Assembly: GCA_038087875.1 (NCBI GenBank)
Contig: CM075991.1
Span: forward strand, 11,410,001-11,474,000
Length of the DNA: 64,000 nt
DNA from: Malacoraja senta
Lineage: Eukaryota
Direction of reading: 5' to 3'
Positions 56,601 through 59,600 of the stretch are shown in pieces. The first letter of the stretch is position 1. Every line of letters starts with the position of its first letter. The position numbers and the translations under genes are program-made. Below the pieces are notes generated by a model. The model was not told where the DNA came from. It worked only from the letters and a program-made list of their open reading frames with translations, and did no database searches.

Positions 56601-59600
56601 GCAACGTTTCGGGCCGAAACCCTTCTTCAGTCTTTTCAATCTTTCCTCATATGACAGTCCCGCCATCCCGTACGTATAATGTAGAAATATTACAACATAG
56701 AAACATATCACTCAACTATAGTCTGGACACCTTTAATAGAAGCTGGATAATTATATTGGGGAGAAGGGAAGAGGCTTAGGAAGGATAGACAGTAAGAGGG
56801 TAAAATGGCAGCTGAACCATCCTACCACAACCAGAGAGCAGTGCTGAACTACTATCTACCTCATTGGTGACCCTCGGACTGTCCTTGATTGGACTTTGCT
56901 GGCTTTACCTTGCACTAAATGTTATTCCCTTATCATGTATCTGTACACTGTAAATGGATCAATTGTAATCATGTATTGTCTTTCCGCTGACTGGATAGCA
57001 CGCAACAAAAAGCTATTCACTGTACCTTGGTACACCTGACAATAAACTAAACTAAATGTTCAAGAAGAGACTGCAGATGCTGGAGAAAATCGAAGGTAGA
57101 CAAAATTGCTGGAGAAACTCAGCGGGTGCAGCAGCATCTATGGAGCGAAGGAAATAGGCAACGTTTCGGGCCGAAACCCGGAAGGGTTTCGGCCCGAAAC
57201 GTTGCCTATTTCCTTCAGTCTGAAGAAGGGTTTCGGGCCGAAACGTTGCCTATTTCCTTCAGTCTGAAGAAGGGTTTCGGCCCGAAACGTTGCCTATTTC
57301 CTTCAGTCTGAAGAAGGGTTTCGGGCCGAAACGTTGCCTATTTCCTTCGCTCCGTAGATGCTGCCGCGCCCGCTGAGTTTCCCCCTAGCAATTTTGTCTA
57401 TAAACTAAACTAAAATCCTGGTTCCCAAATTTCTCTGTGGTTTCACTCCTGATCGCAAGGCAACGGGCGGGTGCAGCGGGTAGTGCTGCTGCCCCCCCGC
57501 GGCTCCAGAGCCCCGGGTTAATTCCGGTTTGTGGAGTTCGAAATTCTGAGTCCCTCACCATCTTCCAGTCCCGCCTCAAGACCCATCTCTTCACCTCTGC
57601 ATACCCTTAGTCCCATGTTCCCCTCCCCTCTGTCTTACAGCTCTATTTTGTTTTGTTTATTCCTGACTCTCAATTGTAAAGCGACTTTGAGTCCTGAAAA
57701 GCGCTATATAAAATAAATCTATTATTATTATTATTATTACCCTTTCAAATAGTCAATGAATGGAGACCATATTCTAACAAAAAGTTCTTGTTTGTCCATT
57801 AAGACAAGTCTGATTCTTTCCAGGTGTAGGGTCTCCGACATTTCCTTAATCCACATTTTAATTGTGGGGGTTATAGGACCTTTCCAAAATTTTAATATTA
57901 ATTTTTTCCCAGTTATTACTGTAGTCTAGGAAGTTTCTTTGGCTTGTTGTGAGTGTTAGACTTTGTTCTGATATTCCAAGTGTTATTAGTTTTGAGTCGG
58001 GATCCAATTTAGTATTGACAACTTCAGAAATTATTCTAAAAATATCAATCCAGAATTTTTTTAATTTTTATACAATTTGCAAAAGTATGTGTTGTTAGCC
58101 TCTAGATGCAGACATTTATCACAAATAGGAGAGTTCCTCCAGCATTTTGTGTCTACCTTCGATTTTACCAGCGTCTGCAGATCTTTCTTAAACATTATAT
58201 TCCGTTGTTTGTTTTGCAGAGAATAAGTAACCAGTCTGCCCCGGTTGATGAAAGTGTCCGAAGTCTCCATCCCATCATCTACACCTGCACCGCCTTCCTC
58301 TTACTCTGTCTCTTCACCGCCATCATTGCTTACATCCTGAGGCACAAGTAAGTCGACGGTCGTACGTCTGTAAACGCTGCTACTGGCGTCCGGGGAATCA
58401 GCTGAGCCGGTGGTTGTAGCTGAATAAATACGTTTTTTTTTTTTTTTGATTAATATTTTTATTAGAAGCAAACATATTATAAGGTATGGTAACATATTAT
58501 AATAGAAATAAAAACTTTTCATATACATCAATCATACATTATTTAAATTGTCAATTGTCGATTAATTCTGCTTTTAGTGTTTTTTTTAATATATAGATAG
58601 AAAAAGAAAGATAAGTTTTTATTTACATTTTTTTTTTTTAAATTAATTTTATGAGAAGCAATTTTACAAGAATAAAACAATCGGCATATAAAATTATACA
58701 GTTATTGTACAACTTCAATTTTAACTTTTTAACTTGAATATAAGGGAAAAGAAAAGAGAAAGAACTAGAGAGAAAATAAGTGAGAGGTGCAAAGATAGGA
58801 TACCCTAGACTACCAATGTAGCCTAGGGAGGTCCGATCCCATCTTTCCCATCTGAACTGCCCCCTCCATCGACTCTTTTAAGTCAAGACTAAAGACGTAT
58901 CTATACTCCCAAGCCTTTCCTGACGTCCTCTGAGTGAGGGCTACATGTATATATGTATGTAGTTTGTTTTGCTTGTGCTATTCTTATAACAAATGTAAAG
59001 CACTTTGGCCAACGAGAGTTGTTTTTTAAATGTGCTATATAAATAAATGTGACCTGACTTGACTTGACTTGTGTTGACAAGGAGTGGATAAGGATGTAAG
59101 GGAGGAGAAGGGAAAAAAAAGAAAGGGAAAAAAAAGAAGAAAAAAGAAAAGAAAAAGTGGAGATATACCTGCCTCTCGTCCACCCCCACCCCCCCTCCCA
59201 CCCACCTCACCCAACCCATAGTTGGATTTAAATCCAAAGATGTGTCGTGCCATACTATCCTTGTAAGAATTCGGTGAAGGGTGTCCATGTCTTGAAAAAT
59301 GGATCTGTTTTTTTCTGCCTGGACAGGTATGAATGAATATGTTTATTGGCCAAGTATTCACATACAAGGAATTTGCCTTGGTGCTCCGCCCACAAGTGAC
59401 AACATGACATACAGTGACTGTTACGAATGACACGTAAAACATTAAACATTAGTAATAAAACATTATCGATTAAACATGTGTACCAAGGAAGCAAAAGACC
59501 GAGCCATTAGCCCTACTGCCCCATGCATCACATGGAACTTTCTCCCTTCCACCCAGCACCCATGTCCCAAATCACATGTCCTCAAGGACCAGAGGACACA

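What the first reader, a model, noticed from the sequence alone, without database searches (positions are those of the whole stretch)
57160..57352. Tandem 44-nt array of hammerhead-ribozyme-like motifs in an ADGRA2 intron
Seen: the unit CAGT-CTGAAGA-A-GGG(TTTCGG)CCC-GAAA-CGTT-GCCTATTTCCTT repeats head-to-tail at 57216, 57260 and 57304 (two units have GGGCC for GGCCC). A partial unit and an inverted copy precede it. Established: CUGANGA...stem II...GAAA...NUH is the hammerhead core, and Penelope-like elements carry minimal type-I hammerheads whose palindromic helix-III (here ACGU) favours dimeric folding. Inference: adjacent units in the sense orientation of the ADGRA2 pre-mRNA are the geometry a double hammerhead needs, so they could self-cleave the intron or release ~44-nt monomers. 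Caveat: predicted helix I is only about 2 bp, so the motif may be a dead relic.
Basis: partly seen in the sequence, partly recalled or inferred. Interest (0 to 1): 0.7.

Follow-up and report, generated by a model that had tools for sequence, protein, structure and literature searches.

The report
Tripled retrotransposon hammerhead, likely inactive debris
Three 44-base copies of a hammerhead-ribozyme motif sit inside a short insertion of a very common retrotransposon end in an intron of a fish gene (likely a skate's); they are likely a copying accident and are predicted to fold into a non-cutting shape, so this looks like ordinary transposon debris.

Summary
The array is there as described (units at 57216, 57260, 57304, sense strand of an ADGRA2-like intron). 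It is the centre of a ~343-bp two-armed inverted insertion with a 15-bp target-site duplication. The unit is the first 44 nt of the terminal repeat of a Penelope-like retrotransposon: the same repeat follows a broken GIY-YIG ORF at 24.9-25.6 kb, and 64 fragments of it cover 8.8% of the window. A second insertion (37.4 kb) has the same junction with one unit instead of three. Self-cleavage looks unlikely: helix I is 2 bp, two of three units have a G-G mismatch in helix II, and neighbouring units are exact reverse complements over 15 nt covering the GAAA box, so the double-hammerhead fold is computed 38-47 kcal/mol above the free fold (two-molecule control 11-35 for dispersed copies, 40 for the array pair). 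Reads of the source organism were not found, so copy number is unverified. New member of a known kind; interest 0.2.

The parts
57042..57056 (.). Left target-site duplication (15 bp), in the A/C-rich tail of an older repeat
   Evidence: exact 15-bp direct repeat with 57400-57414
57057..57096 (-). About 40-nt 'tail' extension present on the left arm only
   Evidence: arm alignment; one-sided 30-40 bp tail is a described PLE feature (PMC8557442 passages)
57097..57179 (-). Left arm: inverted, 5'-truncated copy of the retrotransposon terminal repeat, starting at helix II (no CUGA box)
   Evidence: 93% complementary to 57316-57384 and 100% to 57184-57216; 93% identity to the ORF-linked copy
57181..57216 (+). 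Partial unit (helix II, GAAA, GUU; CUGA box missing); forms a perfect 33-bp hairpin with the left arm over a 4-nt loop
   Evidence: I2
57216..57259 (+). Unit 1 (G-centre variant; G-G mismatch in helix II); predicted cut site 57247|57248
57260..57303 (+). Unit 2 (C-centre variant; 4-bp helix II ending in U.G, UUCG loop); predicted cut site 57291|57292
57304..57347 (+). Unit 3 (G-centre variant), which is the 5' end of the right arm; predicted cut site 57335|57336
57348..57399 (+). Rest of the right arm of the terminal repeat, without tail
57400..57414 (.). Right target-site duplication (15 bp)
55596..55804 (+). ADGRA2-like exon with GPS motif, upstream of the host intron
   Evidence: Pfam GPS 25.2 bits over cut-off 22.5; 90% to P0004 266-335
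58220..58347 (+). ADGRA2-like exon with the first transmembrane helix, downstream of the host intron
   Evidence: 95% to P0004 336-377
24899..25640 (-). 5'-truncated, broken ORF of the parent Penelope-like element: end of RT thumb, C-x4-C-x2-C linker, GIY-YIG endonuclease (in-frame stop and a frameshift)
   Evidence: translation; Pfam GIY-YIG 22.2 bits, just under cut-off 22.6; 12 homologues at E<=1e-10, best 59-66% in sharks and rays; 3 of 3 homologues scanned carry RT then GIY-YIG
24658..24790 (-). Terminal repeat of that element with a single hammerhead of the same GUU subfamily: the source sequence of the 44-nt unit
37382..37663 (.). Twin insertion: 16-bp target-site duplication, inverted arm with tail, partial unit, one full unit, same junction

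Best explanation
The array is three head-to-tail copies of the hammerhead-bearing first 44 bases of a Penelope-like retrotransposon's terminal repeat, lying inside one target-site-duplicated inverted insertion; it likely arose by template switching during insertion followed by local slippage, and it is predicted to fold into a base-paired rod that does not cut the ADGRA2-like pre-mRNA. Shown: repeat identity, insertion anatomy, twin locus, complementarity between units. Inferred steps: (1) the element's GIY-YIG/RT protein nicked both strands of an AT-rich site about 15 bp apart and primed a cDNA from each end, one with and one without the tail; (2) both cDNAs stopped at the palindrome-rich 5' edge of the hammerhead, the left one folded back and copied 33 nt of itself (the partial unit), and this end was joined to the right arm at a short shared word (CTTC), giving the one-unit form seen at 37.4 kb; (3) slippage or unequal exchange between the two 44-nt-spaced repeats added two units; the C/G difference is the flipped centre of a 15-nt palindrome. 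In RNA the left arm pairs with the right arm or the partial unit, and C- and G-units pair with each other across the GAAA box, so no catalytic core forms; the likely only effect is a long intronic double-stranded stem.
For: Same repeat directly follows a GIY-YIG ORF remnant with homologues bearing RT plus GIY-YIG. 64 fragments of the repeat cover 5,614 of 64,000 bases; 35 of 64 begin between -10 and +12 of the CUGA box; 3' ends fall in two groups, with and without tail. Target-site duplications of 15, 16, 18 and 11 bp at 4 of the 5 loci tested, the fifth giving only a short tandem-repeat match. Same junction at 37540 and three times in the array, nowhere else in the window. The two arms of each insertion share locus-specific letters that differ between the loci. 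In contigs of a related organism (X1) 8 of the 11 joints shown run from 24777-24789 back to 24743-24748 of the native copy, periods 34-48 nt, and one RNA-or-DNA run (X15) shows a 33-nt go-back: such tandem joints recur in the family. Tandem/inverted 5'-truncated insertions with a one-sided tail are the described PLE pattern (PMC8557442); a purified PLE protein nicks and extends both strands at AT-rich DNA (PMC11167929). Folding: double hammerhead 38.3 kcal/mol above the free fold for adjacent units, 42.5-46.5 in context; C/G units 100% complementary over 15 nt. Even intact PLE minimal hammerheads cleave weakly as dimers or trimers (PMC4209133), and 8 of 9 Xenopus retrozyme dimers showed no cleavage (bioRxiv 2026.07.22.740005).
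Against: Nearest-neighbour energies undervalue all hammerhead folds: dispersed copies also show gaps of 11.3-35.2 kcal/mol in the two-molecule control (11 dispersed copies, plus the 37.5 kb unit at 28.1 and the array units at 28.1 and 39.7), so only the excess (array pair 39.7 against 21.7 for the ORF-linked copy) counts. A PLE hammerhead of Anolis cleaved only when its protein was added, so help from proteins is possible. All invariant core letters are intact in all three units, GUU is a cleavable NUH site (PMC3138052 passages), and a 2-bp helix I occurs in the Drosophila virilis PLE hammerhead. The exact window junction is not among the joints shown for relatives (15 of 45 and 12 of 151 rows shown; the tool left some uncounted; table 5c does not state the kind of joint). 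The order of events is inferred from two loci. No reads of the source organism were seen (best run holds 0.44 of words; X21 and X22 gave 0 reads).
Confidence: 0.75

Rival explanations
1. Active double hammerhead: adjacent units pair through their ACGU palindromes, perhaps with a protein chaperone, and cut the intron, releasing 44-nt pieces with 5'-OH and cyclic-phosphate ends that could be circularised.
For: Core letters intact in three sense units; nested dimer fold can be drawn; PLE minimal hammerheads show low activity as dimers and trimers and protein-assisted activity; the array meets the operational retrozyme rule of two or more consecutive complete motifs.
Against: Helix I is U.G plus G-C only, and the junction removes an A-U pair that the ORF-linked copy has; every adjacent pair includes a G-unit with a broken helix II; 15-bp inter-unit duplex and 33-95 bp antisense arm compete; A14 can pair with U17 in this subfamily (sequence); no sign of selection: a young private insertion among many sense-strand intronic copies.
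Confidence: 0.08
2. The two-armed structure with its tandem junction is a non-autonomous master element (a mini-retrozyme) copied as a unit by the Penelope machinery, and the junction was inherited, not re-made.
For: Letter-for-letter the same junction and the same 33-nt fold-back at two loci 20 kb apart, each with its own target-site duplication; retrozymes derive from PLE terminal repeats (bioRxiv 2026.07.22.740005).
Against: The 4-nt centres differ and favour opposite arms at the two loci; arms share locus-specific letters within but not between loci; relatives show a spread of junction periods, not one; a third inverted insertion of the subfamily (39593-39770) has no tandem unit.
Confidence: 0.12
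3. The insertion and one unit are real but the extra 88 nt are an assembly or polishing stutter at a hairpin-rich spot.
For: Period-88 repetition with 80 nt at 100% identity; twin locus has one unit; the window has a 200-N gap; complex PLE insertions trouble assemblies; no reads to check.
Against: A plain 88-nt doubling cannot be made from the one-unit form, because only 80 of the 88 nt exist there (sequence); flanks, duplications and arms are intact; tandem joints of this kind exist in relatives' contigs.
Confidence: 0.08

Closest known systems
Minimal type I hammerheads in the pseudo-LTRs of Penelope-like elements (Cervera and de la Pena 2014, PMC4209133; Lunse, Weinberg, Breaker 2017, seen only as cited in PMC6765202)
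   Same: CUGANGA and GAAA boxes, extra nucleotide between 9 and 10.1, G10.1-C11.1, palindromic 15.2-16.2 with no loop 3, location in the terminal repeat after a GIY-YIG ORF, mostly dispersed truncated copies, opposite-strand pairs 100-700 bp apart.
   Different: Helix I 2 bp and helix II 3-4 bp instead of 4-5 and up to 7-8; GUU triplet; helix II region has become a 15-nt palindrome; copies 44 nt apart instead of about 3 kb.
Complex tandem/inverted insertions of EN+ PLEs, Neptune/Nematis type (Craig et al. 2021, PMC8557442)
   Same: 5' truncation, inverted arm, partial tandem, tail at one end, CX2-5CxxC linker before a C-terminal GIY-YIG in the parent ORF.
   Different: Here both arms are cut down to the last ~95-130 nt, and the partial tandem is only 44 nt and has expanded to three units. 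Clade not tested by RT phylogeny.
Non-LTR retrozymes (Cervera and de la Pena 2020, PMC7229834; Li, Clavereau, Pollet 2026, bioRxiv 10.64898/2026.07.22.740005)
   Same: Tandem units each with a type I hammerhead, derived from a PLE terminal repeat, few units (75% of families have at most 7), often intronic (42-44% in Xenopus), reported from one chondrichthyan.
   Different: Unit of 44 nt is below the reported family range (51-972 bp; typically 150-450 bp); no canonical hammerhead with loop 1-loop 2 contacts; no evidence of expression, cleavage or spread as a unit.
Conserved intronic hammerheads of amniotes (RECK, CTCL, DTNB; PMC6155905 passages)
   Same: Type I hammerhead in a vertebrate intron, sense strand.
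   Different: Those are single, canonical and conserved across species; this is a minimal motif in a young target-site-duplicated insertion of a high-copy repeat.

Membership tests
PLE minimal type I hammerhead | CUGANGA and GAAA core boxes and an NUH cut triplet | tested here: met
   CUGAAGA, GAAA, GUU in all three full units; GUU listed as an active NUH site
PLE minimal type I hammerhead | Unpaired nucleotide between 9 and 10.1; G10.1-C11.1 pair | tested here: met
   A after CUGAAGA, then G-C, in all units; features from PMC4209133
PLE minimal type I hammerhead | Palindromic 15.2-16.2, no stable helix III (dimer needed) | tested here: met
   ACGU, here within the longer palindrome AACGUU
PLE minimal type I hammerhead | Helix I of 4-5 bp | tested here: not met
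   2 contiguous bp in the array; 5 bp in copy 21435 and 5 of first 5 in 45624; a 2-bp variant is described for D. virilis
PLE minimal type I hammerhead | Intact helix II | tested here: inconclusive
   4 bp with U.G in unit 2; G-G mismatch in units 1 and 3; helix II probability 0.00-0.01 in the monomer ensembles
PLE minimal type I hammerhead | Lies in the terminal repeat of a PLE | tested here: met
   same repeat at 24658-24790 follows the GIY-YIG ORF
PLE minimal type I hammerhead | Compensatory changes in helices I and II among copies | tested here: inconclusive
   23 copies: 82.6% of cells paired, no measure above shuffles (68-209 of 500 reach it); subfamily changes are one-sided U-A to U.G
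PLE minimal type I hammerhead | Self-cleavage as a dimer | not testable with these tools
   folding argues against; no assay
EN+ Penelope-like element (Neptune/Nematis type) | RT followed by C-terminal GIY-YIG endonuclease | tested here: met
   window remnant has GIY-YIG just under the Pfam cut-off; 3 of 3 homologues scanned have RT then GIY-YIG; the RT core itself is missing from the truncated window copy
EN+ Penelope-like element (Neptune/Nematis type) | CX2-5CxxC linker between RT and EN | tested here: met
   C-x4-C-x2-C in the remnant; definition in PMC8557442
EN+ Penelope-like element (Neptune/Nematis type) | 5'-truncated tandem/inverted insertions with one-sided tail | tested here: met
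   57.2, 37.4 and 39.6 kb insertions
EN+ Penelope-like element (Neptune/Nematis type) | RT phylogeny placing it in a clade | not tested
   no named reference RTs at hand
Non-LTR retrozyme | Tandem repeat with two or more consecutive complete hammerhead motifs (operational rule of Li et al.) | tested here: met
   TRF period 44; three units with core boxes; monomer MFE -11.2 kcal/mol but in a non-hammerhead fold
Non-LTR retrozyme | Unit of about 150-450 bp (51-972 in the widest survey) with a canonical hammerhead | tested here: not met
   44 nt, minimal motif
Non-LTR retrozyme | Expressed as monomeric linear and circular RNA | not testable with these tools
   no raw RNA reads of the organism offered
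Rfam hammerhead families | Covariance-model score at the family threshold | tested here: not met
   0 matches at gathering in 64 kb; no hammerhead family among the 30 matches up to E 10 in 57000-57450, only generic hairpin families below threshold

The most novel reading that the evidence does not exclude
The 44-nt unit is the smallest retrozyme yet seen: with help from the Penelope protein or host chaperones the tandem cores cut, the 44-nt pieces circularise or are re-copied, and skates, whose introns carry a hammerhead-bearing Penelope end every 2-3 kb, are a natural test bed for how a vertebrate tolerates a very large load of intronic ribozymes, with a subfamily that switched its ribozyme off by turning helix II into a perfect palindrome.
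Probability: 0.07. Interest if true: 0.6.

Novelty: new member of a known kind. Interest (0 to 1): 0.2.

Why it matters
As it most likely stands it matters little: it is one rearranged copy of a repeat that makes up 9% of this window. It is a neat snapshot of how a hammerhead minisatellite can be born from a Penelope terminal repeat (one unit at 37.4 kb, three at 57.2 kb), the route proposed in a 2026 preprint. If it did cleave, it would be the shortest retrozyme unit on record and a case of a transposon accident creating an active intronic ribozyme.

Tried and rejected
Whole-genome count of the junction: no genome held. Rfam: no hammerhead hit at gathering or up to E 10; miRNA-family matches are generic long-hairpin scores far below threshold and were rejected. 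Junction and subfamily patterns in metagenome contigs and the subfamily pattern in prokaryote genome contigs: 0 matches. Covariation among 23 copies: not above shuffles. Cleavage-defined 5' ends: 5 of 64 fragments begin at +25..+31 around the predicted cut, against about 2.5 expected from the neighbouring density (11 in 31 positions); not significant, so not used as evidence of activity. Rolling-circle origin from a cut-and-ligated 44-nt monomer: rejected because the new junction lies 13 nt downstream of the cut site and units alternate. A systematic flip-flop mechanism for C,G,C,G: four units are too few, and ordinary slippage plus unequal exchange can reach the pattern. Earlier findings of the scan: none by sequence or place, one unrelated fungal Penelope report by words. 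The Lunse 2017 paper is not held.

Full report
Observation. Tandem Repeats Finder gives 57181-57348, period 44, 3.8 copies, and also period 88. The host gene is an adhesion GPCR (Pfam HRM and GPS above cut-off). One exon peptide is 96% identical to a protein named ADGRA2-like of Leucoraja erinacea (the only hit among 25 candidates), and the exons on either side of the array match consecutive residues 266-335 and 336-377. So the array is in the sense strand of intron 55805-58219 of an ADGRA2-like gene, and the organism is by inference a skate.

The motif is a common repeat. A degenerate pattern of the core matches 22 times in the window against 0 in 100 shuffles. BLAST with two natural copies finds 64 non-redundant fragments covering 5,614 bases, 8.8% of the window; 35 of 64 begin between -10 and +12 relative to the C of CUGA, and their 3' ends fall into a group at about +80 to +105 and a group at the end of the reference, +115 to +126, that is without and with a tail. 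Two subfamilies are visible: a commoner GUC form and a GUU form, to which the array belongs.

The repeat is the end of a Penelope-like element. At 24899-25640 on the minus strand lies a 5'-truncated ORF with a C-x4-C-x2-C linker and a GIY-YIG motif, broken by an in-frame stop and a frameshift (Pfam GIY-YIG 22.2 bits, cut-off 22.6). A CT-rich spacer follows, then a single GUU-type hammerhead repeat with tail. Twelve longer proteins match at E<=1e-10 among 907 candidates, the best four 59-66% identical and from sharks and rays; 3 of 3 scanned carry RT followed by GIY-YIG. The linker is the mark of the Neptune and Nematis clades (PMC8557442, passages); I did not test the clade by phylogeny. In contigs of a related organism (X1, 104,540 records laid) summed depth is 16.0 million over 24766-24786 and 4.3 million over 24787-24807, in line with truncation at the hammerhead's 5' edge, though the tool warns that this depth is no copy number.

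Anatomy of the locus. A 15-bp direct repeat (57042-57056, 57400-57414) brackets the insertion. Inside: a left arm in minus orientation with tail, ending at helix II; a 4-nt loop; a partial unit that is 100% complementary to the last 33 nt of the left arm; three full units; the rest of the right arm without tail. A twin at 37382-37663 has a 16-bp duplication, the same layout and the same junction, but one full unit. The junction occurs only at these two loci in the window. A third inverted insertion of the subfamily (39593-39770, 18-bp duplication) has no tandem unit. The arms of each insertion share letters that differ between loci, which fits two cDNAs made from one template per event. Inverted and partial-tandem 5'-truncated insertions with a one-sided 30-40 bp tail are the published PLE pattern, and a purified Anolis PLE protein nicks and extends both strands at AT-rich DNA (PMC11167929, parts 1-2 of 4 read). 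In X1, 8 of the 11 joints shown in table 5c lead from 24777-24789 back to 24743-24748 of the native copy (periods 34-48 nt, strongest 46 nt), and X15 shows a 33-nt go-back; the exact window junction is not among the rows shown (15 of 45 and 12 of 151), and the kind of joint is not stated in 5c. I infer that short tandem joints recur at this spot, helped by the words CTTC/GAAG and the palindrome around CUGA.

Is it a hammerhead, and could it cut? Each full unit has CUGAAGA, an extra A, G10.1-C11.1, GAAA, palindromic ACGU and a GUU triplet: the features listed for PLE minimal hammerheads (PMC4209133, parts 1-2 of 4 read). Rfam's models give nothing, which is unsurprising for a motif without helix III (my inference). 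Against activity: helix I is U.G plus G-C, where the published consensus has 4-5 bp and two GUC copies in the window have 5; the junction removes a distal A-U pair of the native copy and lengthens a hairpin that takes up CUGA or GAAGG; G-units have a G-G mismatch in helix II; in this subfamily helix II and the GAAA box form a 15-nt palindrome whose C and G versions are exact reverse complements, so every neighbouring pair can form a 15-bp duplex over the GAAA box. The computed double-hammerhead lies 38.3 kcal/mol above the free fold for two units, 42.5-42.7 in the array and 44.6-46.5 in the whole element; the one-core form with the partial unit lies 31.4 above. These numbers overstate the case, because the model penalises all hammerheads: in a two-molecule control 11 dispersed copies have gaps of 11.3-35.2, the ORF-linked copy among them 21.7, the 37.5 kb unit and unit 2 28.1, and the unit 1/unit 2 pair 39.7. 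The array is therefore worse off than its own parent by about 18 kcal/mol. Published activity of such motifs is low even at best, 8 of 9 Xenopus retrozyme dimers did not cleave (bioRxiv 10.64898/2026.07.22.740005, parts 1-3 of 5 read), but an Anolis PLE hammerhead cleaved with its protein, which keeps the active reading open. Covariation among 23 copies is not above shuffles, and 5' ends at the predicted cut site are not significantly enriched (5 of 64, about 2.5 expected).

Rivals. An inherited mini-retrozyme master (0.12) is favoured by the identical junction at two loci and disfavoured by different centres, locus-specific arms and the spread of periods in relatives. An active double hammerhead gets 0.08. 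Assembly stutter of the extra 88 nt gets 0.08: it could not be tested, because no run holds half of the words of 55500-58400 (best 0.44) and the two raw-read runs laid gave 0 reads.

Comparison and novelty. It works like, and by core features and location is, a PLE minimal hammerhead, with helix I below the usual length. It meets the operational rule for a non-LTR retrozyme in the 2026 preprint but not the unit size (44 against 51-972 bp) or the canonical ribozyme of PMC7229834 (passages). That preprint already reports such arrays from one unnamed chondrichthyan and proposes local amplification from a PLE terminal repeat. My searches (listings and abstracts) showed no paper on this skate family, but Repbase, Dfam, the Lunse 2017 paper (not held; seen only as cited in PMC6765202) and the supplements of the two key papers were not seen and may list it. 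PMC3138052 and PMC6155905 were read as passages only. The scan's earlier findings held nothing on this DNA and one unrelated fungal PLE report, which I did not use.

Verdict. Observation confirmed; interpretation partly supported; new member of a known kind; most likely an inactive by-product of Penelope insertion (0.75); interest 0.2.

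Noticed in passing
window, whole: Fragments of this hammerhead-bearing Penelope end cover 8.8% of the window (64 fragments; 22 core-motif matches), a far higher density than the 4,000-9,000 motifs per genome that PMC4209133 called remarkable, if the window is typical.
   Followed up: partly
window 55845-56007 (-): Head-to-tail pair of GUC-family repeats in which the second copy begins at the predicted cut site (+27/+28); three other copies (10233-, 17876+, 40040+) also begin at +26 to +29. 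A weak, non-significant hint that the family's ribozyme once set template 5' ends.
   Followed up: partly
window 21435 (-), 45624 (+): GUC-family copies with a 5-bp helix I: better candidates for an assay than the array, although each has a change in or near the core.
   Followed up: partly
window 11465, 24786, 37555, 56630, 57220-57308: The GUU subfamily differs from the GUC family by changes that each make a palindrome perfect (15-nt over helix II/GAAA; 6-nt AACGTT), suggesting quasi-palindrome correction; flipped palindrome centres occur only in the two composite loci.
   Followed up: partly
window 3297-3500, 4319-4526, 4542-4703, 17762-17954, 24406-24608, 40604-40697, 42806-42971, 45760-45960, 53506-53695: Many further two-armed inverted insertions of the GUC family; each would form an intronic RNA stem that could be an A-to-I editing substrate.
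   Followed up: no
window 1108-5494 (+): Exons of an exportin-7-like gene (Pfam TPR_XPO7) upstream of the ADGRA2-like gene.
   Followed up: partly
window 43381-45338; 45339-45538: Long C-rich minisatellite (28-nt core) running into a 200-N assembly gap.
   Followed up: no
window 52367-53076: 19-nt minisatellite (36 copies) starting just after an ADGRA2-like splice donor; other ADGRA2-like introns also hold simple-repeat arrays (47732-48188, 54238-54513, 60372-60632).
   Followed up: no
window 56807-57056: 3' end of another interspersed repeat with an A/C-rich pentamer tail (also at 7089-7341 and 27552-27708); the Penelope insertion landed in this tail.
   Followed up: no
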